DNA of 64,000 nucleotides, from positions 505,947 through 569,946 of the forward strand of contig JACJZF010000001.1 in the NCBI GenBank assembly GCA_020635725.1, read 5' to 3'. Position numbers and translations under genes: made by a program. Origin of the DNA: Flavobacteriales bacterium. GTDB lineage: Bacteria; Bacteroidota; Bacteroidia; Flavobacteriales_F; PHOS-HE28. Shown piece by piece: positions 1,601-41,735 of this stretch. The notes below the pieces were generated by a model. The model had not been told where the DNA came from. It was given only the letters and a program-made list of their open reading frames with translations, and made no database searches. The stretch's first letter is position 1; each line of letters opens with the position of its first letter.

Positions 1601-2904
1601 ACATTGAAGGGATGGCTCCCGGTGGCGCCCACCAGGAAAAGGTCTGAGCCGCTCACGAGCAGGTTGCCGGCCAGATCCAAGGAGGTGCCGCCCATCTGCA
1701 GGTCAGAGACCATGCTGCCAGCGTTGTCGAAGACCTGCAACCTCATGTCCTTGGACCCGTAGCCCGAGAGGTTGCCGTCCACAGACCAGGCGGTGCCCGT
1801 GAACTCGGAGAGCATGAGAATGTCCGAGTCCCACAGTTGGATGTCCTGGGCGAAGCTCTCGCCTTGCTCCCAGTACGGCGGAACCGTCACCCAGAGCCGC
1901 TCGCCATCGGGGGAGAAGGCGGTGAGGAACCACTGGGCCTCCCCGCCATTCTGCGGCCCCACGGCCGGGTATCCGTTGGAAAAGCGGAGCATCGAGTCGG
2001 CATAGGTGCCCGCAAGCACCACGTCTCCGGTCGCGGTGCATGTTAAGCCTACGAACGCCGATACCTCACCCCAGATGTTGCAATACACGTAGCGCACCCA
2101 CTGGACGGAGCCTTCGGTATCATATTTCGCCAGGAAGGAGGCGATGTACGCGGTTCCCGGCAGGCTCATGCTCAGATTGTCGAAGTGGGCGATGCCTGGT
2201 GAATCCAAGTACCCTATGATGTACACGTTCGATTGAGCGTCCGTACTAATCGCATAGGCTCTATCCGCTCCATTTGCGACTCCTGCGGTTCTCCTCCAAA
2301 TGAGGTCGCCCTGCCCAGTGAATTTCGAGAGGAAGACCTCCCCAGCGTCCATCCCGGTCAGTAGAATCTCCCCCTCAGCATTGAGCACGATTCCGCGTAC
2401 CCCAGCATGATCGCCTTCTATTTCTGCCGTCCAGATCGTATCGCCTTGGGTATTGAGCTTCAACAGCTCGATACCAACGGTGCCCGATGCTCCGGATTCA
2501 TTCCCAAAGAAGTGGAGTTCATCTGTGTAGCTCGCGGCAACAATGAGGTTGCCCGATGCATCAGACGCCGTGGAGCACCACATCGTATAGCCGCCAACGG
2601 TAACGAAGTTCTCCGCGATTCGCTTTGTCCATAGTGGATTTAGGTCACTATCGAGTCGTGCACAGTAAACAGCGCGTGTAGCTTCCGTGCGTAGAGTGTC
2701 CTGGCCGATTATCAAGGATTCCGAGAACAACCCAACAACGTAGCAGCCACCATCAGGTGCGGTCACGACGGATCGATTGTAGTACATGGAGCTGGTGCCC
2801 TCTGGGCCGAGAATTATCTGATCGGCAATGGAAAATGATTGTGCATGACTACAGAGCTGAAGCAGCTGGGTGGCGATTCCTAACCAATAGTAGAGCTCGC
2901 GCAT
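1276..2904 (-). CDS. T9SS-sorted secreted protein with SBBP-type beta-propeller repeats and a Por_Secre_tail C-terminal domain
   Basis: Signal peptide MRELYYWLGIATQLLQLCSHAQS (start moved to the internal Met at 2904). Repeated Y..GG.G.D.G.AI..D..GN.Y..G motifs. The C-terminus is NPSNGEVRLSLDP...GLYLLELMGTDGRLEAQRLIVE. Confidence 0.7.
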   Translation of the reverse strand: MRELYYWLGIATQLLQLCSHAQSFSIADQIILGPEGTSSMYYNRSVVTAPDGGCYVVGLFSESLIIGQDTLRTEATRAVYCARLDSDLNPLWTKRIAENFVTVGGYTMWCSTASDASGNLIVAASYTDELHFFGNESGASGTVGIELLKLNTQGDTIWTAEIEGDHAGVRGIVLNAEGEILLTGMDAGEVFLSKFTGQGDLIWRRTAGVANGADRAYAISTDAQSNVYIIGYLDSPGIAHFDNLSMSLPGTAYIASFLAKYDTEGSVQWVRYVYCNIWGEVSAFVGLTCTATGDVVLAGTYADSMLRFSNGYPAVGPQNGGEAQWFLTAFSPDGERLWVTVPPYWEQGESFAQDIQLWDSDILMLSEFTGTAWSVDGNLSGYGSKDMRLQVFDNAGSMVSDLQMGGTSLDLAGNLLVSGSDLFLVGATGSHPFNVGVDSFDHPDPGNAFVIKLAQDPNGLPSVAANQLFSAYPNPSNGEVRLSLDPRLGRCRVMVRDAMGRVVLERSVSGPTETMRIPESGLYLLELMGTDGRLEAQRLIVE

Positions 2905-3019
2905 AGTCAATGACTTCCTTTTGGTAACGGAATGTGAGTCAACTCGGCCATCCACTGTGTCGTTGATTACTGTGGCCTGCTCACTCGGGGATGGTCTTCC
3001 AGCGTAGGCATCAGTTCAT

Positions 3020-3350
3020 CGCGCTCACTCCACGATTAGCCGCTGCGCCTCAAGGCGCCCATCAGTTCCCATGAGCTCGAGCAGGTACAAGCCGCTCTCC
3101 GGAATCCGCATCGTTTCAGTGGGGCCGCTCACGGAGCGCTCAAGAACGACCCGGCCCATGGCATCTCGCACCACCACGCGGCAGCGGCCGAGCCGTGGGT
3201 CGAGGGAGAGCCGCACTTCTCCATTGCTCGGGTTGGGATACGCGCTGAACGACTGATTCGCGGCAACCGATGGCAGGCCATTCGGTTCCTGCGCCAGCTT
3301 GATCACGAACGCGTTCCCCGGATCGGGGTGGTCGAAGGAGTCCGATCCAA
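3020..3350. repeat. Copy B of the ~330-bp near-identical segment
   Basis: Same as above. The two genes diverge 5' of this block. Confidence 0.8.
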
Positions 3351-4653
3351 CATGCAATGGATGACTGAAAGTGCTGGCCAAAACAACCACACCTTCATTC
3401 GAGGCATGCAACTCGCCTCCTACTTCAATCAGGCTGCCTCCGATCTGATAATCCTCTTCAAGCGCCCCGGCGCTATCGTAGAGTCGTACCCGAAGGTCAT
3501 CCCATCCGTAACAGGATATCATCCCTTGGGTAGAGGTGACGTTTCCGTAGAATTGGTCAAGTACGGCGTATGAGTCGCCATACTTGTCGATGTCTTGTGC
3601 ACGACTGTAGCCTTGGTCGGAATAATCATCGGTGGTCACCCAGATGCGCTCTCCGAAGTCGTCGAAGGCCACCAAGAATGAGACCGGGGACCCCGCTGGC
3701 CTTGATCCTACTGGAGAGAGACCATTCGAGAACCGCAGAACCGCATCCTCATAATTGCCCACGAGGACCACTCCGCCGCTAGGTGGACAGCACAATGCGG
3801 TGAAGAACGTCCCCTCGGCCCAAAGCGCGCTGTACACATATCGGACCCATTGAACGGTTCCGAAAGAATTGTACTTAGCGACAAAGGACACATTGAAAGC
3901 GCCACTTGCCAGGGGGACAACCAGGCCATCGAAGTTGGCAACACCAGGTGGGGCAAGGATCCCGACGACATACACATTCGAGAACGCGTCTACCTCTATG
4001 GCGTACCCTTGGTCAAAACCGCTCGGGGTGCCCGCTGTCCTTCGCCAGAGAAAGTCACCGGCAGAACTGTACTTGGCGATGAAAACATCCCCAGAGTCTT
4101 GACCTGTGATGAATATCTCGCCCAGTGAATTGGTTGTTATGCCCTTCCCTCCGAGTTTATCCCCTTGAACGGTTCGAGTCCAAACTGTATCGCACTGCTC
4201 ATTCAGCCTGATGAGTTCTATTCCCATACCTCCAGTGTCGCCAATCGTTTGTTCGAAGAGGAATAGTTCATCGGTGAAGCTCATGCCTACGATGCATCCA
4301 CCGACGCCATCTGGGGCTGTCGAAACGGTCATGTGATAGGTGCCCTCGGTCACCCGGTTCTCGGCGATTCTCCGGAACCAGATTGGCTCGAGTTCGGCAC
4401 TCAGCCGAATGTGATAGACCGCATCTGTTTCCGAAGTTCGGAGGGTGTCGAGCCCGTAGAAGACTGAATCTGGGAACACGCCCGTTATGTATTGGCCATC
4501 GTTGATGGCCTCAGCCATGCTGCGCGTCAGATAGATGGATGAAGATGTCTCATTGACCAACGGCGATGACTGACCGAGGGCAAGGGATTGTGCCGACGAG
4601 GAATGCTGGAGGAGAAGCCAGCATAGCAAGAATTGAAAGGCCGTCCGCGCCAT
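3025..4653 (-). CDS. Paralogous T9SS-sorted SBBP beta-propeller protein
   Basis: Signal peptide MARTAFQFLLCWLLLQHSSSAQS. The repeat architecture matches 1276-2904, and the last ~110 aa are nearly identical to that gene, including the T9SS C-terminal domain. Confidence 0.7.
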   Translation of the reverse strand: MARTAFQFLLCWLLLQHSSSAQSLALGQSSPLVNETSSSIYLTRSMAEAINDGQYITGVFPDSVFYGLDTLRTSETDAVYHIRLSAELEPIWFRRIAENRVTEGTYHMTVSTAPDGVGGCIVGMSFTDELFLFEQTIGDTGGMGIELIRLNEQCDTVWTRTVQGDKLGGKGITTNSLGEIFITGQDSGDVFIAKYSSAGDFLWRRTAGTPSGFDQGYAIEVDAFSNVYVVGILAPPGVANFDGLVVPLASGAFNVSFVAKYNSFGTVQWVRYVYSALWAEGTFFTALCCPPSGGVVLVGNYEDAVLRFSNGLSPVGSRPAGSPVSFLVAFDDFGERIWVTTDDYSDQGYSRAQDIDKYGDSYAVLDQFYGNVTSTQGMISCYGWDDLRVRLYDSAGALEEDYQIGGSLIEVGGELHASNEGVVVLASTFSHPLHVGSDSFDHPDPGNAFVIKLAQEPNGLPSVAANQSFSAYPNPSNGEVRLSLDPRLGRCRVVVRDAMGRVVLERSVSGPTETMRIPESGLYLLELMGTDGRLEAQRLIVE

Positions 4654-4895
4654 GATTTAGAATGCTCTAATCGGCATCCGAACGAATGAGAATTCACTCA
4701 TGATGTGCATGATGAATCGCTGTGAACGCGGTGTTCCGAAGGTAGGGTGTCCGCGAGACATGGACCGGGTTATTGGCCCATCAAGTGTGTTGACTTTACA
4801 GATACTCCAGCCCCACCTCACATTGCCCTGTGAACGAACTGCACGGCAATTGCCGTTAGGGGCTATAGGGTGCGGGTAGCTTTCGCACCTTCCCC

Positions 4896-7541
4896 ATGCT
4901 GCGCAAGGCCCGCAACCTCCTTTTGGCATTCGCCGCCCTGCTGGCGCTGGGCTTCGGGGTGCTGCTGGTGCTGGCCAACGTGTACGAGGATGAGGTGAAG
5001 GCCCGGCTGCTCGGCGCCGTGAACGAGCGGCTGCGCGCCCCGGTGAGCGTAGGTGCCATCGACCTCACCCTCATCGCCCGCTTCCCCATGGCCAGCCTGC
5101 GCCTGCGCGATGTGAAGGTGGATGAGGTGCGCACCGACTCCCTGCCCGCCGATACCCTGCTCACGGCCGACGAGGTCTTCCTGGAGTTCAACCTCCTCGC
5201 GCTCTTCGGCGGCAGCCAGACCGTGGAGCGCATCCACACGGCCAACGTGGCGCTCTTCCCCGCGCTGGACCGCAACGGCGTGGAGAACTACATCATCTGG
5301 CGCAGCGATTCCGCCTCCGCCTCTTCGCCGGTGGAACTGGAGCGGCTCACCTTCGATGGCTTGCACGTGCGCTTCACCGACGCCCGCAATGGCCTGCACA
5401 TCGCGGCCGAGAGCGAGGACCTGCTGCTCGCCGGCCGTTTCGGGGAGGAGAGCCAGCTGCGCGCCGAAGGCGATGTGCACCTGCTCTCGCTGGAGCGCGA
5501 CGGGAAATCCCTCCTCGACGAGCGCCGGGCGCAACTGGCCCTCGATATGAGCTTCGGCAAGGAGGCCTTCCAGATATCCAAGGGTGAAGTGCAGCTGGGC
5601 AAGGTTCCGCTGCAGCTCACCCTGGCGCTCACCCAAGGAGCAAAGGGTCGCGAGATAGACCTGCGCGCCAACGGCCTCGGCCTGGACCTCGGTCGGGTGA
5701 TGGAGCAGCTGCCCGCGTCGATCCAGGGCCCGATGAAGCGTTTCGGCCTTTCGGGGGGCATCGACCTGGCCATCAAGTACGCGGGCTCGTTGGAAGGCGA
5801 TGGTCCGCCGCTCTCCATTGGTGCGCAGGTGAGCCAGGGGCGCATGAAGGAGCGCACGAGCGGCACGCAGTTCACCGAGATCAACGGCGAGCTGGCCATG
5901 GACATCGCGCCCGACGGCAGCATCCGCAAGCTGAAGGTGAAGGACCTGAGCGCGCGCAGCGGCTCGGGCAGTTTGCGTGCCGACTGGTCCTCCGGCGGCG
6001 TGAAGAAGGCGCCGGTGAAGGCCGATATCCGCTGCGACATCGCCATCGCCGACCTGCTGCGCATGGCCGGCGTGGATACCCTGGAGCAGGCCGCGGGCCG
6101 TTTCGTCGCTGACATCAAGGTCGATGGCACCCTGCGCGACATGGCCGACCTGCGCGTGAGCGACCTGAAGGCCGTGCGCGTCACGGGCCATGCCGCCTTG
6201 CGCGATGCCGGCTTGAAGCTGAAGGGCGTGCGCCACCGCGTGGAGCACCTGGACGCTGAGCTGGCGCTGAACGGGAACGACGCCACGGTGCGCGGGTTGA
6301 AGGCGGATATCGCCGGATCGCCGATCGAGCTGAGCGGCACCCTGCGCAACCTGGTGCCCTACGCGCTCTTCGAGCAGGAGCACCTGGTGATCGAGGCCAA
6401 AGGCCGCAGTCCGCGCATCGACCTGGGCGCCTTGCTGCAAGGCGATGAATCCGGTCATGGAACGGCCTACGCGCTGGTACTGCCGGCGGCCATCGAGCTG
6501 GACCTGCGCGCGCAGGTGGATGAGCTGGTCTTCGAGGACTTCAAGGCCACCGGCATCAACGGCACCATCCGCATGAAGGACCGCGTGCTGCGCGCCTCGC
6601 CGCTCTCCTTCGCCACCGCCGACGGTGCCGTGCTGGGCAGCTTGGAGCTCGATGCACGCGGCGGCGGCTCGGCCAGCTGGTATCCGCTGGCGATCGAGGC
6701 CGACGTGAAGGACATCGCGATCCAACAACTCTTCGCCGAGTTCCGCGATTTCGGGCAGGAATTCATCGGCCAACGGCACCTCAGCGGGCGCGCGCGGGCC
6801 AGCATCGCCTTCCGCGCGCCGCTGTCACCCGCCATGCGCATCGACCGCGACCGCATCGCGTGCACCATCGACATCGCCGTGGAGAACGGCGGCATCAAGG
6901 GCCAGGGCCAGCTCATCGCCGTGGCCGACTACCTGAAGAAGAACAAGCTCGTGGCGCCCTTCGTCGATACCGAAGAGCTGCGGCGACGCCTGGCCGATGT
7001 GCGCTTCGCGAAGCTGGAGAACCGCGTGGAGATCAAGGACGGCGCCGTGCATGTACCGCTGATGGAGGTGCGCAGCAACGCTCTTGACATCGAGCTGAGC
7101 GGCACGCACTGGTTCGACGACCGCATCGATCACCACCTCAACTTCCGTCTCGGCGACCTCTTCCGCCTGGGCAAGCCCACCGCCGATGAGTTCGGTCCCA
7201 TCGCCGATGACGGCACCGGCATGCGCGTCTTCCTGCACATGCACGGCACCGCCCAGGCCCCGCTCTTCGAGAACGATGGCGCCATGGCCGCCAACAGGCG
7301 ACGCCAGCAGTTCCAGCAGGAGAAGCAGCAGCTGCGCACCATCCTGCGCGAGGACATACTCGGTCACAAGTCGGAAGGCACTACCACCGCGCAGGCTCCC
7401 ACGGGTGGCCGGGTGATCATCGAACAGGAAGGAGATAGCACCCGCAACGAGCTGGTGGTGGCCCCGAAGAAGCCGAAAGGGCGCCTCTTCGCCGAGCCCA
7501 AGGAGAAGAAGGAGCCGGGGCGGATCATCATCGAGGACTGA
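4896..7541 (+). CDS. AsmA-family outer-membrane biogenesis protein
   Basis: N-terminal transmembrane helix followed by VSVGAIDLTLIARFPMASLRLRDVKVDE, which is characteristic of the AsmA N-terminal domain. The remainder is a long beta-rich region of 881 aa. Confidence 0.65.
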   Translation: MLRKARNLLLAFAALLALGFGVLLVLANVYEDEVKARLLGAVNERLRAPVSVGAIDLTLIARFPMASLRLRDVKVDEVRTDSLPADTLLTADEVFLEFNLLALFGGSQTVERIHTANVALFPALDRNGVENYIIWRSDSASASSPVELERLTFDGLHVRFTDARNGLHIAAESEDLLLAGRFGEESQLRAEGDVHLLSLERDGKSLLDERRAQLALDMSFGKEAFQISKGEVQLGKVPLQLTLALTQGAKGREIDLRANGLGLDLGRVMEQLPASIQGPMKRFGLSGGIDLAIKYAGSLEGDGPPLSIGAQVSQGRMKERTSGTQFTEINGELAMDIAPDGSIRKLKVKDLSARSGSGSLRADWSSGGVKKAPVKADIRCDIAIADLLRMAGVDTLEQAAGRFVADIKVDGTLRDMADLRVSDLKAVRVTGHAALRDAGLKLKGVRHRVEHLDAELALNGNDATVRGLKADIAGSPIELSGTLRNLVPYALFEQEHLVIEAKGRSPRIDLGALLQGDESGHGTAYALVLPAAIELDLRAQVDELVFEDFKATGINGTIRMKDRVLRASPLSFATADGAVLGSLELDARGGGSASWYPLAIEADVKDIAIQQLFAEFRDFGQEFIGQRHLSGRARASIAFRAPLSPAMRIDRDRIACTIDIAVENGGIKGQGQLIAVADYLKKNKLVAPFVDTEELRRRLADVRFAKLENRVEIKDGAVHVPLMEVRSNALDIELSGTHWFDDRIDHHLNFRLGDLFRLGKPTADEFGPIADDGTGMRVFLHMHGTAQAPLFENDGAMAANRRRQQFQQEKQQLRTILREDILGHKSEGTTTAQAPTGGRVIIEQEGDSTRNELVVAPKKPKGRLFAEPKEKKEPGRIIIED

Positions 7542-16238: not shown

Positions 16239-16301
16239 GGCGCGCTGCGCAGAACAGCCGGCCATAACCGCTTGATGTTCAGACAACCAACATGGTTGGG
16301 T

Positions 16302-16336
16302 ACAATTTCGGAATCAGATTCCGAAATTGTACCTTT
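16302..16336. promoter_or_regulatory. Perfect 17-bp inverted repeat (GGTACAATTTCGGAATC A GATTCCGAAATTGTACC) 5 nt upstream of the ATPase start
   Basis: Exact palindrome read directly. It is AT-richer than the surroundings. The weak T-tract after it argues for an operator or recombination site rather than a terminator. Confidence 0.5.
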
Positions 16337-18165: not shown

Positions 18166-18195
18166 CCGAAGCCGTGCCTTACGGGGCACGGCTTC
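18166..18195 (+). terminator. Candidate hairpin terminator (10-bp stem aagccgtgcc/ggcacggctt, 6-nt loop)
   Basis: Lies directly after the stop of the 17546-18160 gene. The U-tract is weak. Confidence 0.35.
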
Positions 18196-22257: not shown

Positions 22258-25200
22258 CTAGACCACGATGTTCACGATGCGCTTGGGCACCACGATCACC
22301 TTCTTGGGCGCCTTGCCTTCGAGGCGTTGCTGCACCTCGGGATTGGCCAGCACGGCCGCCTCTATGCTCTTGGGGTCCAGGGCTATGGGGAATTCCAGCT
22401 GCAGGCGGGTCTTGCCGTTGAAGCTGATCGGGTAGCTGAAGCTGTCCTCCACCAGGTACTCCGCGTTCCATTGGGGCCAAGGCGCCCCGGTCACACTGTC
22501 AGCATGCCCGAGCTTCTGCCAGAGCTCCTCGGCGATGTGCGGCGCGAAGGGTGCCAGCGCGATCACCAGCGGCTCCAGCACCGCGCGCTTATCGCACTTC
22601 AGGCTGCCCAGCTCGTTCACGGCAATCATGAACTGCGCCACGCTCGTGTTGAACGACATCTTCTCGATGTCCTCGCTCACCTTCTTCAATGTGGCGTGCA
22701 GGATCTTCAGTTCGGGTTTGGTGGGGGCGTCATCGGAAACGCCGAACGCATCACCAGCGCCGTGGAACAGGTTCCAGAATTTCCGCAGGAAACGGAAGGT
22801 GCCTTCGATGCCGTTGGTGTCCCACGGTTTGCTCTGCTCCAAGGGGCCGAGGAACATCTCGTAGAGCCTCAATGTGTCGGCGCCGTACTTCTCGATGATG
22901 TCGTCGGGGTTGACGACGTTCCATCTCGACTTCGACATCTTGTCCACCTGTCGAAGGCATACAACGCGCCCCTTCCACTCAATGAACTCTGCTCTGCTAA
23001 ACAGGTTGTTCTGTTTCAGTTTGAGAATATCAACGGTCTCTTCATCTTCACCGATACACTCAATGGGTATTAGGATGCCTTTGTTGAACAAATCAGGTCG
23101 TCCGACGGAAAAGTCCGGGTAGACCTTTCCTTCGGGATAGGTGACGTTGTAGAAGTTGGTTATGTAGTCGACGACGTACTGACGTGCAGTCTTGTATTCG
23201 GCGTGATCAGGCTGGCAAAGGAGGTAGTGAAGGTCAAAGCCCATAAAGACCTCCGGTGCTTTCTCGTAGGGAAGATCCTTCGGCAAGTCTTTGTTCCCTC
23301 TGTGAAGGAATACTCTAACCAGGCCAGCAGATTTACCCTGTATCATCCCCTGATTCACCAGCTTCTTCGCGGGCTCGTCGAAGTCGATCCAACCGCGGTC
23401 GTGCAGGAATTTGGTCCAGAAGCGGAAGTAGAGCAGGTGGCCGGTGGCGTGCTCGCTGCCGCCCACGTAGAGGTCGATCTGCTTCCAATAGTTGAGGGCT
23501 TCGGGTGATGCGAAGCGCTCAGGGTTGTGCGGGTCCATGTAGCGCAGGAAGTACCAGCTGCTGCCGGCCCAGCCGGGCATGGTGGTGGTCTCGATCGGGT
23601 ATACCTCACCCCCGGCCCCTCTCCCGGGGAGAGGGGAGTAGCTCCAGTCCTTCGCGCGAGCGAGCGGAGGTTCACCTTCGGCGGTAGGTAGGAACTTGTC
23701 CACCTCGGGCAGCTTCAGCGGCAGCTCGCTCTCGGGCAGCGGGTAAGGGATGCCATCCTTGTAGTAGATGGGAATGGGCTCGCCCCAATAGCGCTGTCGG
23801 CCGAAGGCGGCATCGCGCAAACGGAAGTTCACCTTGCCTTCCCCCGCGCCGAGCTTCTCCAATTCCTGGATCGCTCGCGTGATCGCCTGCGGCACCTTCA
23901 TGCCTTTCAGGAATCCTTCGCTGCTGATGGTGGCGTCCTTGCGCTCGTCGGCCTCCTTGTCTATGTCGGCGCCCTCCGTTACGGCGATGATCGGCAGCCC
24001 GAAGTGCTTCGCGAAGCGCCAATCGCGCTGATCGCCGCCGGGCACGGCCATCACCGCGCCGGTGCCGTAGCCCGCGAGCACGTAGTCGCCAACCCATACG
24101 GGCACATCGGCGCCGGTGAAGGGGTGCTTCGCGTAGCTGCCGGTGAACACGCCGCTCACCTTGTCCACCTCGGCCTGGCGCTCGCGCTCGCTGCGGTTCT
24201 TCGCCTTCTCGACGTACGCTTCGACCTCGGCCTTGCGGTCCGCATTGGTCAGTATCGGCACCAGCTCATGCTCGGGGGCAAGGGTGATGAAGGAGACGCC
24301 GAAGAGGGTGTCGGGGCGGGTGGTGAAGACTTCGATTACCTCACCCCCCGACCCCTTCTCCGAGGGAGAAGGGGAGGAATGCGCGACGTTCGGCCGGGCA
24401 TCGAGTGTTGCTTTGATGGTATCGACAACACGCGGCAGCTCCGCCATCACCTCGTCATTCGTGAATCGCAAAACGTCGAAGCCCAACTCCTTCAACCGAG
24501 CGGTTCGTGCGGCGTCCTCTTCTTGCCGCGCCTCATGGATGCTGCCGTCCACTTCGATCACCAATCGCTTGGGCAGGGAGACGAAATCGACGATGTAGCG
24601 GTCGATGATGTGCTGCCTTCGAATGCGCCCTCCTGTCGCATGCGCTCGGATTTGCTGCCATAGCTTTTCCTCTGCTTCAGTGGGCGCTTTGCGGTTCTCT
24701 CGCGCCAGGTCCTGCAGTTTCCCTGCGACAGTTCCATCGGCGGTTAAGTAGCCAGGCCGCTCGGCCCAGGTCGGCTGAGCGGTCCCCCTCTCCCTCGGAG
24801 AGGGGTTAGGGGTGAGGGCAAATCGCACGGTAGCCCCCTCGCTGCGACCGATCCAATTGCGCTGCGCTTCCTTGATGCTCTCGCTCCAATCGAGCGTGTC
24901 GAGTCCGTCGAGCAGGCGCTGGGCGTAGGCGGTGATGCGCAGGCTCCATTGCTTCATGCGCTTGCGCTCCACGGGATGGCCGCCGCGCTCGCTCACGCCA
25001 TCCTTCACCTCGTCGTTGGCGAGCACAGTGCCCAGTGCGGGGCACCAGTTCACCCAGGCATCGCTGATGTATGCGAGGCGGAAATGCTGCAGCACGAGCT
25101 GTTTGGTGCGCTCATCGAACGACTTCCATTCCGCCGCGCTGAATTCGCCGATGAATTCCTCCACATCGCCGGTGAGCACACTGGCATCCTGACCGGTGCA

Positions 25201-25704
25201 GCCTTGAGCCTCGAAGCGCGCGATCAGTTCCGCGATGGGCCGGGCCTTGTCCAGTGCGGGGTCGTACCAGCTATCGAAGAGCTGGAGGAAGATCCACTGC
25301 GTCCACTTGTAGAACGAGGGGTCGCTGGTGCGCACCTCGCGGCTCCAATCGAAGCTGAAGCCGATGTTGTCCAACTGTTCGCGGTACCGCGCCACATTCA
25401 CCTCGGTGGTCTTCGCCGGGTGCTGGCCGGTCTGTATGGCGTACTGCTCAGCGGGCAGGCCGAAGCTGTCGTAGCCCATGGGGTGCAGCACATTGAAGCC
25501 TTGGTGCCGCTTGAAGCGCGCTACGATGTCGCTGGCGATGTAGCCGAGCGGGTGCCCCACGTGCAGCCCTGCGCCGCTGGGGTAAGGGAACATGTCGAGC
25601 ACGTAGTACTTCGGCCTGGAGGGGTTGTTCTCCACGCGGTAGGTCTTGCGCTTCGCCCATTCCGCGCGCCACTTCTTCTCGATCTCCTTGTGCTCGTAGG
25701 CCAT
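22258..25704 (-). CDS. leuS: Leucyl-tRNA synthetase with an in-frame insertion of about 160 aa containing a DUF559 domain
   Basis: MAYEHKEIEKKWRAEW...YVLDMFPYPSGAGLHVGHPLGY (HIGH motif), TTRPDTLFG, and a KMSKS-type region. At 1148 aa it is about 170 aa longer than expected. Confidence 0.9.
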   Translation of the reverse strand: MAYEHKEIEKKWRAEWAKRKTYRVENNPSRPKYYVLDMFPYPSGAGLHVGHPLGYIASDIVARFKRHQGFNVLHPMGYDSFGLPAEQYAIQTGQHPAKTTEVNVARYREQLDNIGFSFDWSREVRTSDPSFYKWTQWIFLQLFDSWYDPALDKARPIAELIARFEAQGCTGQDASVLTGDVEEFIGEFSAAEWKSFDERTKQLVLQHFRLAYISDAWVNWCPALGTVLANDEVKDGVSERGGHPVERKRMKQWSLRITAYAQRLLDGLDTLDWSESIKEAQRNWIGRSEGATVRFALTPNPSPRERGTAQPTWAERPGYLTADGTVAGKLQDLARENRKAPTEAEEKLWQQIRAHATGGRIRRQHIIDRYIVDFVSLPKRLVIEVDGSIHEARQEEDAARTARLKELGFDVLRFTNDEVMAELPRVVDTIKATLDARPNVAHSSPSPSEKGSGGEVIEVFTTRPDTLFGVSFITLAPEHELVPILTNADRKAEVEAYVEKAKNRSERERQAEVDKVSGVFTGSYAKHPFTGADVPVWVGDYVLAGYGTGAVMAVPGGDQRDWRFAKHFGLPIIAVTEGADIDKEADERKDATISSEGFLKGMKVPQAITRAIQELEKLGAGEGKVNFRLRDAAFGRQRYWGEPIPIYYKDGIPYPLPESELPLKLPEVDKFLPTAEGEPPLARAKDWSYSPLPGRGAGGEVYPIETTTMPGWAGSSWYFLRYMDPHNPERFASPEALNYWKQIDLYVGGSEHATGHLLYFRFWTKFLHDRGWIDFDEPAKKLVNQGMIQGKSAGLVRVFLHRGNKDLPKDLPYEKAPEVFMGFDLHYLLCQPDHAEYKTARQYVVDYITNFYNVTYPEGKVYPDFSVGRPDLFNKGILIPIECIGEDEETVDILKLKQNNLFSRAEFIEWKGRVVCLRQVDKMSKSRWNVVNPDDIIEKYGADTLRLYEMFLGPLEQSKPWDTNGIEGTFRFLRKFWNLFHGAGDAFGVSDDAPTKPELKILHATLKKVSEDIEKMSFNTSVAQFMIAVNELGSLKCDKRAVLEPLVIALAPFAPHIAEELWQKLGHADSVTGAPWPQWNAEYLVEDSFSYPISFNGKTRLQLEFPIALDPKSIEAAVLANPEVQQRLEGKAPKKVIVVPKRIVNIVV
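23605..23646. repeat. Solo third copy of the GC-rich hairpin motif, in-frame within leuS (encodes SPLPGRGAGGEVYP)
   Basis: cctcacccccggcccctctcccggggagaggggag, in the same orientation as the 24346-24385 copy. Confidence 0.55.
24340..24830 (-). mobile_element. In-frame insertion within leuS: a DUF559 (Vsr-like endonuclease fold) domain flanked by inverted GC-rich hairpin repeats
   Basis: Encoded segment ALTPNPSPRERG...EKLWQQIRAHATGGRIRRQHIIDRYIVDFVSLPKRLVIEVDGSIHEARQEEDAARTARLKELGFDVLRFTNDEV...SPSPSEKGSGGE. Flanking nucleotide motifs: cctcaccccccgaccccttctccgagggagaagggg (24346-24385) and its inverted counterpart cccctctccctcggagaggggttaggggtgagggc (24783-24820). Confidence 0.45.
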
Positions 25705-32741: not shown

Positions 32742-33184
32742 GGGGGCGAATAGGGAGGAAAGGTAGTCGCGAGGGCCGCTTCTTCATGGACGAGCGCCGC
32801 AGGCCGGGGTTGTCCGTTCCGCGCGATGCTTATGACCCGGGTTGTCTCCTGCCGTCAGAGGAAAGAAAGGTCAGCAGGAAGAGGGAAATGGATATCCGAG
32901 GTCTCTCGGGCTGGCTTCGATGATTCAGGTTCAGCGTGCGGTGGGCGTCCACGATCCGCGCGGGACAGGCGGTCGGCGTGCCGGTGCGTAGAGCTTGCGC
33001 GGTAGACGAGCCGCCTGGACTTGGTTAGCCTGCCCCGGCCTACGAGCCGGGGTGGTCGCCTTTTGGCTCCACCTTTTGGCGAAGCAAAAGGTGGAAAGAG
33101 CTATTTGGATTTCCTGTCGCTTCCGCCACGTTCCGGAGTAACGATTCATGAGCCGCGCGCCGGCGTTGACCATCTTTGCCCGCC

Positions 33185-38595: not shown

Positions 38596-39465
38596 TCACG
38601 GGATCCACCTCCCCTTGCCGAATTGCGGCTTGCGCTTCTCCAGAAAGGCATTGCGTCCCTCCTTGGCCTCATCGGTCATGTAGGCCAGGCGCGTGGCCTC
38701 ACCGGCAAAGACCTGCTGGCCCACCATGCCATCATCGGTGAGGTTGAAGGCGAACTTCAGCATCTTGATCGATGTGGGCGATTTGGCCAGGATCTCCTGC
38801 GCCCATTGCCAGGCGGTGTCCTCCAGTTCGGCGTGCGGTACGCTGGCGTTCACCATGCCCATCTCGTAGGCGCGGTCCGCGCTGATGTCGCGGCCGAGGA
38901 AGAAGATCTCGCGAGCGCGCTTCTGTCCCACCATCTTGGCGAGGTAGGCGCTGCCGTAGCCGCCATCGAAGCTGGTCACGTCGGCATCGGTCTGCTTGAA
39001 CACCGCGTGCTCCTGGCTCGCGAGGCTCAGGTCGCACACCACGTGCAGGCTATGCCCGCCGCCCACGCACCACCCGGGCACCACCGCGATCACCGCTTTC
39101 GGCATGAAGCGGATCAGGCGTTGCACCTCCAGGATGTTCAGGCGCGGCATGCCGCTGTCATCCACATAGCCTTGGTGTCCGCGCGCGCGCTGGTCGCCGC
39201 CGCTGCAGAAACTCCACACGCCATCCTTCGGGCTCGGTCCCTCGGCGCTGAAGAGCACCACGCCGATCTCGGTGTCCTGGTGCGCGTCGTGGAACGCATC
39301 GAGCAATTCGCTCACCGTATGCGGACGGAAGGCGTTGCGCACCTCCGGTCGGTTGAACGCGATGCGCGCCACGCCTCCGCTCTTGCGATAGGTGATGTCG
39401 GTGTACGTCTTCGCCTCCCGCCATTGCGGCGGGTCGGCCTTTAGCTGCATGCGTGCCTTGGTCAC
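38596..39465 (-). CDS. menB: 1,4-dihydroxy-2-naphthoyl-CoA synthase
   Basis: Full-length crotonase fold with a MenB-specific N-terminus and C-terminus (…KRKPQFGKGRWIP). Confidence 0.9.
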   Translation of the reverse strand: MTKARMQLKADPPQWREAKTYTDITYRKSGGVARIAFNRPEVRNAFRPHTVSELLDAFHDAHQDTEIGVVLFSAEGPSPKDGVWSFCSGGDQRARGHQGYVDDSGMPRLNILEVQRLIRFMPKAVIAVVPGWCVGGGHSLHVVCDLSLASQEHAVFKQTDADVTSFDGGYGSAYLAKMVGQKRAREIFFLGRDISADRAYEMGMVNASVPHAELEDTAWQWAQEILAKSPTSIKMLKFAFNLTDDGMVGQQVFAGEATRLAYMTDEAKEGRNAFLEKRKPQFGKGRWIP

Positions 39466-39475
39466 TTCAGTGCAA

Positions 39476-40204
39476 TCAATGATTTGCTTCGAATCGGATG
39501 AGCATGGTGCGTACGAGGGTTTTCCTCAGTTCTTTCGTTTGGTTGAACATATCAAAGCCCTTCTTGAACATCTGCTGCATCAATTCCGTGTAGCTATCCC
39601 CTGCAATGCTCGGGCGCTCAGATATAGCGATGATATTTCCCAATTGAAGATCGCTTGCTTTAGCTATGGCTTCGGCCTCAGCGCGTGCTCGTCCGATTAC
39701 GCGCGCATGGAAGGACGGGTATTGGGGATCCGGCTGAGCGTAGAATACCTCGTGCACACTCCCTTGATATCCCTCAATTCCCTTCAATAGTTTCTGCAAG
39801 CGGGCAAGCTCTTCCCTTGAGTGCAACGTGACGAGCAATGCCTCGCCGGCCTGCTTCTTTCCTGCCAGCGGAAGCCAACTATTAGGAGTGAGCTCTTCGC
39901 CACTTGCCTTCTGTACTGCCCTGAAATCATTTTTCTGCAACAGCACCTGTACCATTTCGAGGTCCATGGATGGAGGGTGATTTTCGTCCTCGGTATCCAC
40001 GGGAAGCTTGACTCCCATGAAACTGACCTCTTTTCCGCTATCAATCCGGTAAACGATTGATGTGGCCTCGAGGTAGATGGTATCGGTTACTGCAATCTCG
40101 ATGAATGGTGCTTGTGCCTTGACTAAGCACGAGCAGGACACTACAATAAACGCAAGGAGTGAACGGCACATGGAGCGTACGAATGGGGTGTTCTTTGGGG
40201 TCAT
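39476..40204 (-). CDS. SIMPL (DUF541)-like periplasmic protein in a low-GC patch of about 50%
   Basis: Signal peptide MCRSLLAFIVVSCSCLVKAQA. ...RARAEAEAIAKASDLQLGNIIAISE pattern. Confidence 0.45.
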   Translation of the reverse strand: MTPKNTPFVRSMCRSLLAFIVVSCSCLVKAQAPFIEIAVTDTIYLEATSIVYRIDSGKEVSFMGVKLPVDTEDENHPPSMDLEMVQVLLQKNDFRAVQKASGEELTPNSWLPLAGKKQAGEALLVTLHSREELARLQKLLKGIEGYQGSVHEVFYAQPDPQYPSFHARVIGRARAEAEAIAKASDLQLGNIIAISERPSIAGDSYTELMQQMFKKGFDMFNQTKELRKTLVRTMLIRFEANH

Positions 40205-40244
40205 TGGTTAGTTGTGGAGCGCACGGGGAAGGCTACGAATATCG

Positions 40245-41735
40245 CTATGATGATGAGCTTCCGCGCCTTACGGTGCTTGTGCTCTGAGAAGCGTGGGAGT
40301 TGAAGACGAACGCCGCGCACGCCACGCCGATGAAGAGCACAGGCAGGGTGTAGCGCTCCTCCACACCGCGCTGCACGTAGGCGAGGTAGAACAGGTAGAG
40401 CACCGCACCCGCCGCGGTCCAGCGCACGGGCGTTGGGATGCCCGGGAGAAGAGCGAGCGCCACGCAGCAGAAGAGGGCAACATGCAGCAAGGCGCTTAGC
40501 CACCGAAGGACCTCCAACCACCAGATGCCGCGCAGTTTGTGCTGGAAGAGGAAGAGGTTCAGGTTCGAGTGGGCGATGAGATGCTGGAGCACGCGCATCG
40601 GAACCACCACATGATAGTGGAACGGATGCTCATTACGCCAGTCACTGGTAATGCGGGCGAGCGAGGCGTTGATCCGCGCTTCGAGCGCAGTGCTCGTGTG
40701 CAGGGTGCCAGATGAGGATCGCAGGGCCGGACCGAGCTCGATGCAATTGAAGCGCTGCCAGTCGTGGAATGCGCTGGTGACAGCATCGTGCTGCGAGGTG
40801 GACAGCAGGTCATGCGGAGCCAGGTCGAGGTAGCGCTTCGCGTAGGATTCAGCGGTATCACACACCAGCGCGGCACGGAAAGCCGGCTCCATGGTCACAT
40901 GGAAGGCATCGCCGCTCGCGCCCCAGCTCTTCGCCAACTCCCAGAATGCGCCGTGCGCGGGCCGGTTGATGCCGGGTTCGTCAATCCGGTACACGGGATG
41001 AAGGCCGATCAGCTCACCGGCCTTCATGCTGTTCGCGACCCACCATAGGCATGTAGGCAGCGCCGCAAGCACGATCAGGAGAGTCCCGCGAACCGGGCGG
41101 CTGCTCATTAGCGGGGGCATCAGGGCGAAGCCCACCCACCCAAGTGCCGGCCGGGTGAGGATCAGCAAGGACCAAGTGACGAGACCGAGCGTCAGCCAAC
41201 GCTTGTCGGATGTCAGGTGGCCCATGAGCGCGCTGCAGAGCACGATGAGCGAGAGGGCCGGCGTGACCCCTTCGGTGAGTGTGTGGAAGAGGAAGCCGTG
41301 GAAGGTGGGCATCGCCGCGAACGCGATGATCAACGGCCAACGGATGCGCGGATCGATGCCGAGGCGTAAGAGCGTTTCCCATAACAGCGCGACGGAGGCG
41401 GCGTACAGGAGGCATTGAAGGAACACCAGCACGCTGAGCGCGGGCAGGGGTTCCAGGAAGAGCCGCGGCAGCAGGTACCAGATCCGGTAGCCCGGGGAGC
41501 GCAGGTCCACCCGGGCGTGCATCGGCCCGCGCTCCAGGTCTGGCCGGTCGCCGAGCAGCCGGTCCACGGCCTGCAGGTAGGAGGGCGCATCCACCGAGCT
41601 GAGCACGCGGCCATCGATCACCCCGCCGCGCGCGTTGGGCGTTCGTTCCATCTCGTGGATGTTCCACCGGTTCCACGCCTGCGCGCTTGCGAAGGCGAGC
41701 AGGGCGACCAGCAGGTGCACGCGGTAGCGCCGCAT
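40245..41735 (-). CDS. Hypothetical protein with multiple predicted transmembrane segments
   Basis: Start moved to the internal Met (MRRYRVHLLVALLAFASAQAW). About 10 predicted transmembrane segments. Confidence 0.45.
   Translation of the reverse strand: MRRYRVHLLVALLAFASAQAWNRWNIHEMERTPNARGGVIDGRVLSSVDAPSYLQAVDRLLGDRPDLERGPMHARVDLRSPGYRIWYLLPRLFLEPLPALSVLVFLQCLLYAASVALLWETLLRLGIDPRIRWPLIIAFAAMPTFHGFLFHTLTEGVTPALSLIVLCSALMGHLTSDKRWLTLGLVTWSLLILTRPALGWVGFALMPPLMSSRPVRGTLLIVLAALPTCLWWVANSMKAGELIGLHPVYRIDEPGINRPAHGAFWELAKSWGASGDAFHVTMEPAFRAALVCDTAESYAKRYLDLAPHDLLSTSQHDAVTSAFHDWQRFNCIELGPALRSSSGTLHTSTALEARINASLARITSDWRNEHPFHYHVVVPMRVLQHLIAHSNLNLFLFQHKLRGIWWLEVLRWLSALLHVALFCCVALALLPGIPTPVRWTAAGAVLYLFYLAYVQRGVEERYTLPVLFIGVACAAFVFNSHASQSTSTVRRGSSSS

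What the first reader, a model, noticed from the sequence alone, without database searches (positions are those of the whole stretch)
23605..23646. Solo in-frame copy of the same hairpin motif further inside leuS
A third copy of the motif (cctcacccccggcccctctcccggggagaggggag) lies about 700 bp downstream within leuS and has no adjacent DUF559.
- It encodes SPLPGRGAGGEVYP.
- It sits immediately before the conserved TTTMPGWAGSSWYFLRY block, where other LeuRS proteins have only R-E-T-D-T.
- This supports the view that the motif is a dispersed, insertion-competent repeat that can occupy coding sequence in-frame.
Basis: seen in the sequence. Interest (0 to 1): 0.5.

Follow-up and report, generated by a model that had tools for sequence, protein, structure and literature searches.

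The report
Mobile hairpin repeat translated inside leuS
A 35-base hairpin repeat that is scattered through Bacteroidota genomes sits in-frame in a surface loop of the essential leucyl-tRNA synthetase gene, and it appears to be the smallest form of a so far undescribed selfish element whose full form carries a DUF559 nuclease.

Summary
The unit is at 23604-23638: tail CCTCACCCC, a 3-nt spacer, a 9-bp stem, a 3-nt loop. It lies in-frame in leuS (22258-25704, minus strand) and encodes SPLPGRGAGGEV. Chance expectation is 0.

It is not a LeuRS feature. The nearest relative (7% core divergence, syntenic) lacks it, as do most of 120 homologues. About 26 homologues carry variant units at the same loop, always in the same orientation. 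These differ in stem variant, reading frame and copy number (1 to about 8).

The same unit occurs in 49 viral-collection and more than 120 genome stretches, almost all Bacteroidota. There are 193 distinct flanks, and the unit boundaries are sharp. It comes in three forms:
- 165 solos;
- 16 short inverted doublets with tails outward (against 1 inward);
- DUF559 cassettes flanked by tail-outward copies, as at 24339-24817 in this gene.

Units and cassettes also lie in-frame in AspRS, IcmF-like mutase, Lhr, MiaB-like and phage portal genes. Five of six frames are open.

The best reading is a non-autonomous unit of a DUF559-associated hairpin element, tolerated as a flexible loop. The insertion mechanism and the role of DUF559 are inferred. 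No target duplication was found. No paper describing it turned up in six full-text searches of the held library.

The parts
23604..23638 (+). Solo hairpin unit, written tail-first on the + strand: CCTCACCCC-CGG-CCCCTCTCC-CGG-GGAGAGGGG-AG. It is read on the minus strand as SPLPGRGAGGE(V) of LeuRS.
   Evidence: Exact single match, 0 expected. Translation. The same unit is found in 169 loci from other organisms.
23604..23612 (+). Conserved 9-nt tail, CCTCACCCC. This is the outward-facing end in doublets and DUF559 cassettes.
   Evidence: The tail was fixed by the search pattern, so its constancy is not a result. What the data show is that flank information content drops to about 0 beyond -5 and that the tail faces outward in 16 of 17 close inverted pairs.
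23616..23636 (+). Hairpin with a 9-bp stem (23616-23624 / 23628-23636) and loop CGG (23625-23627).
   Evidence: Stem variants elsewhere stay complementary (TT/AA in copy B, L002 and L173; T..A in L080; shortened on both sides in L164). Loop and spacer vary.
22258..25704 (-). leuS, the host gene: 1148 aa, carrying three units and a DUF559 domain in-frame.
   Evidence: ORF list and translation. Pfam finds tRNA-synt_1, the LeuRS editing domain, Anticodon_1 and DUF559.
24339..24376 (+). Right-end unit of the DUF559 cassette: CCTCACCCC-CCGA-CCCCTTCTCC-GAG-GGAGAAGGGG-AG. It reads SPSPSEKGSGGEV and has the same orientation as the solo copy.
24388..24759 (-). DUF559 (Vsr-like PD-(D/E)XK nuclease) domain, translated as LeuRS residues about 316-439.
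   Evidence: Pfam PF04480 E=6e-32 over aa 330-434. tblastn span. PDB 3HRL E=9e-18 and I-Bth0305I (3R3P) E=0.55. The RRQH, IVDF and EVDG..H positions are at least 95% conserved in 51 LeuRS-embedded copies.
24783..24817 (-). Left-end unit of the DUF559 cassette, inverted on the + strand: CCTCACCCC-TAA-CCCCTCTCC-GAG-GGAGAGGGG. It reads LTPNPSPRERG.

Best explanation
The solo copy is one unit of a dispersed DNA repeat family of Bacteroidota, about 35 nt long. Each unit has a conserved tail (CCTCACCCC), a 2-4 nt spacer, and an 8-10 bp hairpin of the CCCCTCTCC/GGAGAGGGG type with a 3-nt loop.

The family occurs in three forms:
- cassettes in which two tail-outward units flank a DUF559 (Vsr-like) nuclease ORF;
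- miniature tail-outward doublets;
- solos, the commonest form.

The unit entered leuS as DNA, at a surface loop that in other bacteria holds a Zn knuckle. It persists for three reasons. Five of its six reading frames are open. The net length change is a multiple of three. The Pro/Gly/Ser-rich peptide is tolerated as a flexible loop. It is therefore translated as part of LeuRS and needs no splicing.

Shown: the unit anatomy, its dispersal, its sharp boundaries, the orientation rules, the in-frame occupancy of several genes, and presence/absence with recurrent variant alleles at this loop.

Inferred: the DUF559 nuclease, acting in trans from the cassette in the same gene or from free-standing copies, makes the break that drives copying of units and cassettes into new or empty sites, by homing or gene conversion with imprecise junctions. 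Solos would be its non-autonomous passengers or leftovers. leuS would be a preferred target, not just a permissive one.
For: 1. Dispersal. The pattern CCTCACCCCN{2,4}CCCCTCTCCNNNGGAGAGGGG hits 49 viral-collection stretches and 120 or more genome stretches. Almost all are Bacteroidota of several orders, with several hits per genome on different contigs. There are 193 non-redundant flanks, and flank information is about 0 beyond -5 and +2.
2. Polymorphism. L003 is empty against the window (84% nt identity, syntenic). L173 is filled against L174 empty (core distance 0.023; +36 nt). L175 is filled in another frame (PLSPGEGSGVR) against L176 empty (+36 nt). Filled alleles are scattered among empty ones in a clustering of the conserved core. 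They carry different stems, frames and copy numbers, from 1 to about 8.
3. The constraint is on DNA, not protein. The same DNA is read as SPLPGRGAGGEV, PLSxGEGxGVR, LTPNPSPxERG or PHPxPLSxGEG. The variable residue (P/L/H/V/I/N) is the codon spanning the stem-loop junction (my reading of the peptides against the DNA).
4. Family architecture. At least one unit lies within 300 bp of the DUF559 hit in 18 of 20 loci, and units on both sides (tails outward) in 11. Close inverted doublets are 16 tail-outward against 1 inward. There are 165 solos among 235 units.
5. In-frame units or cassettes occur in AspRS, MiaB-like, IcmF-like mutase, Lhr, ResIII and Mu-like portal ORFs. A further one lies in a 996-aa ORF that I took for a DNA methyltransferase without scanning it.
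6. leuS preference. 14 of the 120 loci fetched by motif alone lie in leuS, at three loops. By my estimate, assuming a 3-kb gene in a genome of about 4 Mb, that is roughly 150 times its genomic share. In Chitinophagaceae a full cassette sits at this very loop and ends ...SPLPGRGVGGEV|KRETSTMPGYAG, in the same orientation and frame as the window's solo.
7. The nuclease looks active and mobile. Catalytic-type positions are at least 95% conserved. DUF559 divergence is almost uncorrelated with host LeuRS divergence (Spearman 0.095). Different DUF559 subtypes occupy the same site in near relatives.
8. The AlphaFold model gives low confidence and no secondary structure for all three unit-encoded peptides, and pLDDT 80-90 for DUF559.
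Against: - No target-site duplication or clean junction was found. Filled and empty alleles differ by +30 or +36 nt with extra substitutions at both junctions, so the insertion chemistry is unknown.
- In the window and in seven syntenic neighbourhoods of about 20 kb, every copy is inside leuS. Dispersal in the source genome itself is therefore unproven.
- All of about 26 filled alleles at this loop share one orientation. This also fits a single old insertion followed by loss, gene conversion and recombination, as opposed to repeated insertion.
- No experiment links DUF559 to the hairpin. The association is partly ascertained, because the loci were picked by motif.
- Folding energy is not better than that of shuffled GC-rich sequence (z = -0.1 to -1.8).
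- The structure model is poor overall (pLDDT 65, pTM 0.35).
Confidence: 0.7

Rival explanations
1. The solo is the remnant of a complete DUF559 cassette that once occupied this loop. An internal deletion removed the left unit and the nuclease and left only the right-end unit. This would be the late stage of a homing cycle. It overlaps with the best explanation, because the element family is the same.
For: In Chitinophagaceae and Ferruginibacter (L057, L082, L105, L109) a full cassette sits at exactly this loop. Its right end reads SPL[PL]xRGxGGEV directly before (K)RETSTMPGYAG, in the same orientation and frame as the window's solo. The solo has a right-end-type spacer (CGG, not TAA). All filled alleles at the loop have this orientation.
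Against: None of 120 Flavobacteriales-clade LeuRS has DUF559 at this loop. Solos make up 70% of all units and lie in many places where no cassette is evident. Tandem arrays of 2, 3 and about 8 units at this loop (P0007, P0009, P0068) are not what a deletion leaves behind.
Confidence: 0.25
2. The solo arose inside the gene, by ectopic gene conversion or template switching from the right-end unit of the resident DUF559 cassette 735 bp away. On this view no dispersed element transposed.
For: Within each genome the two copies share their outer junction: GGTGAGG-TA in the window at both sites, and G[GA]TGAGG-GGCATTA[CT] in L002 at both sites. They also have the same orientation.
Against: Solos at the same loop occur in LeuRS that have no DUF559 cassette at all (P0086/L173, P0052, P0088, P0067). 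Within the window the two copies differ in stem (CTCTCC against CTTCTCC), loop and spacer.
Confidence: 0.12
3. The 12-14 aa are a host-selected LeuRS loop, for example a replacement for the lost Zn knuckle, and are conserved for protein function. The DNA repeat would then be incidental.
For: Thermus and Neisseria LeuRS have a segment of similar length (CPKCGGPAKR) at this position. The insert is kept in-frame in many lineages.
Against: The insert is absent from the nearest relative and from most of the clade. The same DNA is read in different frames, giving unrelated peptides at the same loop (SPLPGRGAGGEV against PLSPGEGSGVR). The identical DNA unit occurs in non-coding, AT-rich contexts and in unrelated genes. 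There are no Cys or His residues for metal binding.
Confidence: 0.04
4. Chance low-complexity GC-rich sequence, or an assembly artefact.
For: The window is 58-68% GC. Shuffled sequences fold about as well.
Against: Zero matches are expected by chance. The same allele is present in an independent assembly (L001, 90% nt identity). The identical 27 specified bases recur in more than 200 places elsewhere.
Confidence: 0.01

Closest known systems
Rickettsia palindromic elements (RPE; Ogata et al. 2000, from my own knowledge; cited in PMC1779305 and the MITE review PMC10969869 found)
   Same: Both are selfish palindromic DNA repeats. [quoted passage not shown] They are translated as extra surface peptide segments without destroying function. 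They also occur in non-coding DNA.
   Different: RPEs are about 100-150 bp, are restricted to Rickettsia, and have no associated nuclease gene. This unit is about 35 nt, occurs across Bacteroidota, has a conserved non-palindromic tail, and forms the termini of a DUF559 cassette. No sequence similarity to RPEs was tested or is expected.
REP / REPIN elements with their RAYT genes (from my own knowledge of Nunvar 2010, Bertels & Rainey 2011 and Ton-Hoang 2012)
   Same: Both are short hairpins (20-40 nt) with a conserved 5' tag. They occur as singlets, inverted doublets and clusters. The associated enzyme gene is flanked by two inverted copies. There is no target duplication.
   Different: The associated gene here is a DUF559 Vsr-like PD-(D/E)XK nuclease, not an HUH Y1 transposase (Pfam). 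The tag is CCTCACCCC, not GTAG. Units and the enzyme gene itself sit in-frame inside genes, whereas REPs are by definition extragenic.
Inteins and homing-endonuclease genes, including the Vsr-like (EDxHD) homing endonucleases I-Bth0305I (PMC3239194) and those of 'fractured genes' (PMC2677866)
   Same: A nuclease ORF is inserted in-frame at recurrent sites of conserved essential genes. Its distribution among close relatives is patchy, and its phylogeny is decoupled from the host gene's. DUF559 has the Vsr-like fold (weak match to 3R3P, E=0.55; PADLOC 'HEase', E=0.002).
   Different: Pfam finds no Hint or splicing domain, and no intron was looked for (Rfam gave no credible match in 23400-25000). 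The insert stays in the mature reading frame. The cassette has hairpin terminal repeats, which also exist alone. Known homing elements lack this feature.
Bacterial MITEs (for example Correia and Nezha; review PMC10969869)
   Same: Both are short and non-coding, have inverted-repeat structure, and are numerous compared with a larger coding relative. Occasional in-frame insertions into genes are known.
   Different: The solo is a single terminal unit, not a TIR-bounded element. No TSD was found, and the larger relative encodes no recognisable transposase.

Membership tests
Rickettsia palindromic elements (RPE) | Palindromic repeat inserted in-frame in protein-coding genes and translated through | tested here: met
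   The unit is in-frame in leuS and in AspRS, MiaB-like, IcmF-like, Lhr and portal ORFs. Translation is inferred from the preserved frame, not measured.
Rickettsia palindromic elements (RPE) | About 100-150 bp long, with sequence families RPE-1 to RPE-8 of Rickettsia | tested here: not met
   The unit is 33-38 nt and occurs in Bacteroidota. Similarity to RPE sequences was not tested.
REP/REPIN-RAYT | Short imperfect palindrome with a conserved 5' tag, present as singlets and inverted doublets | tested here: met
   A tail plus an 8-10 bp hairpin. There are 165 solos, and close inverted doublets are 16 tail-outward against 1 inward. The tag differs from GTAG.
REP/REPIN-RAYT | Associated gene is a RAYT (IS200/IS605-like Y1 HUH transposase) flanked by inverted REPs | tested here: not met
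   The flanked gene is DUF559, PF04480 (E=6e-32), with no Y1 transposase domain.
REP/REPIN-RAYT | Extragenic location | tested here: not met
   This copy, and about 45 of 232 surveyed units, lie inside long ORFs. The rest appear to be intergenic.
MITE | Terminal inverted repeats bounding a short non-coding element, flanked by a target-site duplication | tested here: not met
   The solo is a single unit. Filled/empty comparisons show no TSD, and flank profiles show no repeated flank. Doublets in other loci do have a TIR-like layout.
MITE | Derived from an autonomous IS that encodes a transposase | tested here: not met
   The larger relative encodes only a DUF559 nuclease of about 110 aa.
Intein | Hint (protein-splicing) domain with N- and C-terminal splicing blocks around the endonuclease | tested here: not met
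   Pfam on the whole LeuRS finds only tRNA-synthetase domains plus DUF559/MTES_1575. The flanks are the hairpin-encoded peptides.
Homing endonuclease gene (Vsr-like / EDxHD family) | Nuclease that cleaves the empty allele at or near its own insertion site | not testable with these tools
   The only evidence is indirect: recurrent sites, patchy distribution, a phylogeny decoupled from the host (Spearman 0.095) and conserved catalytic positions.
Homing endonuclease gene (Vsr-like / EDxHD family) | Sequence membership in the I-Bth0305I family | tested here: inconclusive
   3R3P E=0.55; PADLOC HEase E=0.002. The best solved relative is 3HRL, an 'endonuclease-like protein', at 9e-18.
DUF559 (PF04480): applies to the neighbouring cassette, not to the solo | Match to the Pfam model above the gathering score | tested here: met
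   110.1 bits against a cut-off of 20.6, over aa 330-434. The solo has no DUF559 next to it.
Known RNA families (Rfam 15) | Match at or above a family's gathering score | tested here: not met
   There are only four sub-threshold hits (E=0.07-0.47), and all lie at copy B, not at the solo.

The most novel reading that the evidence does not exclude
The solo unit would be the minimal form of an undescribed class of selfish element in Bacteroidota and their phages. The full form is a hairpin-terminated cassette encoding a Vsr-like DUF559 nuclease. It homes in-frame into surface loops of essential genes (LeuRS at three loops, AspRS, IcmF-like mutase, Lhr, MiaB-like). It stays in the mature protein with no intein or intron splicing. 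The hairpin units act both as its termini and as translatable flexible linkers, and they spread on their own as non-autonomous passengers. In effect this is a coding-tolerant counterpart of REP/RAYT, driven by a PD-(D/E)XK nuclease.
Probability: 0.35. Interest if true: 0.8.

Novelty: new variant of a known kind. Interest (0 to 1): 0.62.

Why it matters
If the reading is right, an abundant protein family of unknown function (DUF559, usually annotated 'endonuclease domain-containing protein' or 'very-short-patch-repair endonuclease') gets a concrete role as the engine of a mobile hairpin element.

It would be a second, independent case, after the Rickettsia RPEs, of selfish DNA living inside essential proteins. 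It is phylum-wide and comes with a candidate enzyme that can be tested in vitro.

There are practical consequences too. The units create spurious 'PLSxGEGxGVR / SPLPGRGAGGE' peptides and length variation in housekeeping proteins used as phylogenetic markers. They mark permissive insertion loops in LeuRS, a drug target. They also give a ready presence/absence marker for strain-level population genetics.

Tried and rejected
- **Exact-protein look-up of the window's LeuRS:** not on record, so neither the source genome nor a genome-wide count could be obtained.
- **Target-site duplication:** three filled/empty DNA comparisons (window/L003, L173/L174, L175/L176) gave net +30, +36 and +36 nt with untidy junctions and no TSD. 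Flank profiles of 193 units show only a weak A/T preference at -7..-3 and purines at -2/-1.
- **Shared target sequence:** I compared by eye the empty-allele DNA at leuS sites 1 and 2 and the peptide flanks in the other host genes. I saw no convincing common motif. This was not tested formally.
- **Thermodynamic support for the hairpin:** z-scores were -0.1 to -1.8, uninformative in GC-rich sequence.
- **Rfam:** no family.
- **Literature:** six full-text searches of the held library (DUF559; palindromic in-frame selfish elements; the stem sequences; Vsr-like homing endonuclease plus Bacteroidetes; the encoded peptides) found no description.
- **AlphaFold model of the whole LeuRS:** too poor (pLDDT 65, pTM 0.35) to place the loop on the surface with confidence. 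I relied instead on the sequence alignment to 1H3N.
- **Translational bypassing, as in T4 gene 60:** considered and rejected. The unit has no in-frame stop, and the reading frame is kept across inserts of different length.
- **NJ tree with Biopython:** timed out. I replaced it with average-linkage clustering on 864 core columns. That is adequate for nearest-neighbour statements but is not a phylogeny.
- **The second protein search, with the cassette peptide:** returned mostly free-standing DUF559 and not the LeuRS-embedded ones, so it gave no census of host proteins.
Full report
**1. Observation**

None is expected by chance at up to 3 mismatches.

Its anatomy is as follows:
- tail CCTCACCCC (23604-23612);
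- spacer CGG;
- stem CCCCTCTCC (23616-23624);
- loop CGG;
- stem GGAGAGGGG (23628-23636);
- AG.

It lies in the 1148-aa leuS ORF, 22258-25704 on the minus strand. Pfam finds class-I synthetase, LeuRS editing and anticodon-binding domains there. It is read as SPLPGRGAGGEV, between ...ARAKDWSY and YPIETTTMPGWAGSSWYFLRY.

Two more copies lie in the same gene. Copy B is at 24339-24376, in the same orientation, with stem CCCCTTCTCC/GGAGAAGGGG. Copy C is at 24783-24817, inverted. Together they flank, tails outward, the only DUF559 domain of the window (PF04480, E=6e-32, LeuRS aa 330-434). No other copy exists in the 64 kb.

**2. It is an insertion, not a LeuRS feature**

The 120 best LeuRS homologues are all Flavobacteriales-type MAG proteins, 64-86% identical. 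Aligned, most read ...NW[SN]Y-[QNE]-G-[HFY]-PLETTTMPGW, with nothing in between.

The nearest relative outside the window/P0001 pair is P0022 (core amino-acid distance 0.07). Its locus L003 has the same gene order and 84% nucleotide identity in leuS. It lacks both the solo copy and the DUF559 cassette. An independent assembly at 90% nucleotide identity (L001) has the same three copies.

About 26 homologues carry unit-like inserts at this same loop, but they are not the same insert:
- SPL[PLHVIN][GR]RGAGGE, where the variable residue is the codon spanning the stem-loop junction;
- the TT/AA stem variant, SPSPSEKGTGDEG;
- another reading frame of the same strand, PLSPGEGSGVR;
- two, three or about eight tandem units (P0007, P0009, P0068).

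Filled alleles are scattered among empty ones in a clustering on 864 conserved columns. Some occur in LeuRS without any DUF559 (P0086, P0052, P0088, P0067).

Very close filled/empty pairs exist. L173 against L174 has core distance 0.023 and differs by +36 nt. L175 against L176 has core distance 0.052, differs by +36 nt, and uses the other frame.

The junctions are not clean. Besides the unit there are substitutions and 2-6 extra nucleotides on either side. No target duplication is visible.

Distant LeuRS are not empty here. Thermus (1H3N) and Neisseria enzymes have a Zn-knuckle segment, TCPKCGGPAKRDTDT, at this position. The loop is therefore a naturally variable surface element that this clade had reduced to about 3 residues.

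**3. The unit is a dispersed repeat of Bacteroidota**

I searched for the exact pattern CCTCACCCCN{2,4}CCCCTCTCCNNNGGAGAGGGG, which has 27 specified bases. It hits 49 stretches of the viral collection.

The named organisms are almost all Bacteroidota: Hymenobacter, Chitinophagaceae, Ferruginibacter, Flavobacteriales, Cytophagales, Prevotellaceae, Sphingobacteriales, Mucilaginibacter and Capnocytophaga. A few fall outside the phylum. Several genomes have hits on different contigs.

Across 193 non-redundant copies, flank information content falls to about zero beyond position -5 and +2. Spacer and loop vary: CAG, CGG, TAA and AA for the spacer; AAA and GAA for the loop. Many copies sit as GC-rich islands in AT-rich flanks.

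Copies not selected by the search pattern show stems of 8-10 bp that stay complementary when they change. Examples are CCCCTTCTCC/GGAGAAGGGG, TCCTCTCC/GGAGAGGA, CCCCTCCCCTT/AAGGGGAGGGG and CCCCCTCC/GGAGGGGG. A few are decayed.

Folding energies are unremarkable for such GC-rich sequence. No Rfam family matches.

**4. Three forms and an orientation rule**

In 169 loci I counted 235 units:
- 165 solos;
- 16 close inverted doublets with tails outward (gaps of 28-85 bp), against 1 with tails inward;
- 11 tail-outward pairs 200-600 bp apart;
- 8 direct pairs.

Six of those 11 wider pairs (L053, L057, L082, L084, L096, L105) enclose a DUF559 hit. At least one unit lies within 300 bp of the DUF559 hit in 18 of the 20 loci that contain DUF559, and units on both sides (tails outward) in 11 of them. 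The unit upstream of the ORF typically reads LTPNPSPxERG, and the downstream unit reads SPLPGRGAGGEV. The window's solo is of the downstream (right-end) type.

**5. Coding sequences are regular hosts**

Five of the six frames of a typical unit are open. About 45 of 232 units lie in ORFs with at least 80 codons on both sides.

Pfam identifies the hosts:
- LeuRS, many times;
- AspRS, with solos (L132; L092 shows the same flanking peptide but was not scanned);
- a MiaB-like radical-SAM enzyme (L090);
- an IcmF-like mutase with a whole DUF559 cassette (L080);
- Lhr helicase, with DUF559 in-frame (L165);
- a ResIII helicase (L106);
- Mu-like phage portal proteins (L045, L046).

A MAG of the window's own LeuRS clade (JADKJM01, which also gave L175) has an in-frame solo in a 996-aa ORF. 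I took this for a DNA methyltransferase but did not scan it. The same contig, which is not the leuS contig, also carries a free-standing DUF559 (L063).

Fourteen of the 120 genome loci retrieved by the motif alone lie inside leuS. By my estimate, assuming a 3-kb gene in a genome of about 4 Mb, that is roughly 150 times the gene's share of a genome. They sit at three loops:
- site 1, between WIGxSxGAxxxF and IEVFTTRPDT, where the window has its cassette;
- site 2, where the window has the solo;
- site 3, after FWNLFH.

In Chitinophagaceae and Ferruginibacter (L057, L082, L105, L109), site 2 holds a full cassette. It ends ...SPLPGRGVGGEV|KRETSTMPGYAG, in the same orientation and frame as the window's solo.

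**6. The nuclease**

The embedded DUF559 matches the solved 'endonuclease-like protein' 3HRL (E=9e-18). It matches the Vsr-like homing endonuclease I-Bth0305I (3R3P) only weakly (E=0.55), and a PADLOC 'homing endonuclease' model at E=0.002.

In 51 LeuRS-embedded copies the RRQH, IVDF, EVDG..H and RF.N.EV positions are at least 95% conserved. Overall the domain diverges twice as fast as the host core. Its pairwise distances are almost uncorrelated with host distances (Spearman 0.095).

Different DUF559 subtypes (WAERPGYLTAD..., RFRETTNGFLWSKL..., DLRFDTANK...) occupy site 1 in closely related LeuRS. The closest DUF559 relatives of the window's copy (64% and 61% identity) end in sequence that I read as mutase-like. 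I did not test that reading.

Some free-standing DUF559 proteins of Bacteroidota carry hairpin-type peptides at their ends, of several sequence families. Examples are SPSFGGGGEV at both ends of P0125, SPPLEGLGEV and NLTPSPSPKERG. A regex tuned to this window's unit found few of them: 1 N-side and 3 C-side among 120. The examples hint that the hairpin-DUF559 association may extend beyond this unit, but I did not quantify it.

**7. Explanation**

I conclude that the solo copy is a non-autonomous unit of this hairpin/DUF559 element family. It is fixed in-frame in a permissive LeuRS loop and translated as a flexible Pro/Gly/Ser-rich segment.

The AlphaFold model is poor overall (pLDDT 65). It gives low confidence and no secondary structure for all three unit-encoded peptides, and 80-90 for the DUF559 domain.

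How the unit gets in is inferred, not shown. These observations fit break-induced copying (homing or gene conversion) better than classical cut-and-paste transposition:
- there is no TSD;
- the junctions vary;
- the same loops recur across orders;
- orientation at site 2 is constant;
- tandem build-up occurs;
- the two right-end-type copies of one genome share their outer junction (GGTGAGG-TA in the window; G[GA]TGAGG-GGCATTA[CT] in L002).

The DUF559 nuclease is the obvious candidate for making the break.

Three alternatives remain. The solo could be the leftover of a full cassette at site 2. It could have been copied intragenically from the site-1 right end. There could have been a single old insertion followed by loss and recombination. 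The first two are variants within the same element family. Neither is excluded.

A host-function reading is unlikely, because the conserved entity is the DNA and not the peptide.

**8. Comparison with known systems and novelty**

- **In behaviour**, the closest known case is the Rickettsia palindromic elements: selfish palindromes translated inside essential proteins.
- **In architecture**, the closest is REP/REPIN with RAYT: a tagged hairpin, singlets and inverted doublets, and an enzyme gene flanked by inverted copies.
- **In genomic strategy**, the cassette resembles inteins and homing-endonuclease genes.

It fails defining tests for each family:
- against RPE, on size and taxon;
- against REP/RAYT, because the enzyme is not a Y1 transposase and the location is not extragenic;
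- against MITEs, because there is no TSD and no transposase;
- against inteins, because there is no Hint domain.

Six full-text searches of the held library found no description of the unit, its peptides, or a mobile DUF559 cassette. I therefore rate it a new variant of a known kind. If the nuclease link and in-frame homing were shown experimentally, it would be a new class.

Noticed in passing
window 22900-23350 (leuS aa ~785-920): This stretch is 45-51% GC inside a gene that is about 63% GC. It corresponds to the segment between LVNQGMIQG and KMSKS. That segment cannot be aligned even between LeuRS that differ by 2-5% in the core, which suggests a recombining, mosaic insertion domain.
   Followed up: partly
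window 24339-24817: A complete DUF559 cassette, with two tail-outward units and a Vsr-like nuclease ORF, is translated in-frame within the LeuRS editing-domain entry loop. It is present in about half of the clade, with several DUF559 subtypes, and is decoupled from the host phylogeny.
   Followed up: partly
LeuRS relatives P0001-P0120, loop after FWNLFH (window aa ~980, about nt 22760): A third variable loop carries other short repeat-like in-frame peptides in relatives: APVASTHR, SAEASAKAGR, ESANQQSAI, GKGGESGE. In L115 it carries the CCTCACC unit. The window has no insert there.
   Followed up: no
P0084, P0105, P0114, P0117 at site 2; P0065, P0084 at site 3: A different short repeat (RVVGPSGVEDH / VPSPSGVEG) occupies the same LeuRS loops. 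These loops therefore accept more than one repeat family.
   Followed up: no
L008, L011, L018, L037, L051, L028, L119, L160 (see for coordinates): Some units have a second small palindrome nested in the spacer between the tail and the main hairpin, for example CCTCACCCC-TCCCGATAGCTATCGGGA-CTCTCC.... These are either nested insertions or composite subfamilies.
   Followed up: no
L036 10425-11881: Five tandem repeats of about 335 bp each contain a tail-outward doublet of the unit. They lie in an IMG/VR contig.
   Followed up: no
L045 1319-3868, L046 10455-13019: Mu-like phage portal/F fusion ORFs carry a solo unit in-frame (PLSFGEGxGVR). Phages may carry the repeat between hosts.
   Followed up: partly
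L063 3914-3946 and 4282-4839: In a MAG of the same LeuRS clade, a 996-aa ORF holds an in-frame solo (PLTPSPSPKERG). I took this ORF for a DNA methyltransferase without scanning it. It is followed by a free-standing DUF559 ORF bordered by variant hairpins.
   Followed up: partly
window 16299-16333; 18168-18195; 33068-33095: A perfect 16-bp palindrome (GGTACAATTTCGGAAT-cag-ATTCCGAAATTGTACC) and two 11-bp hairpins. None is related to the unit.
   Followed up: no
window 2001-5000 and 39001-41000: Stretches with lower GC (54-60%) than the 62-68% of the rest of the window.
   Followed up: no
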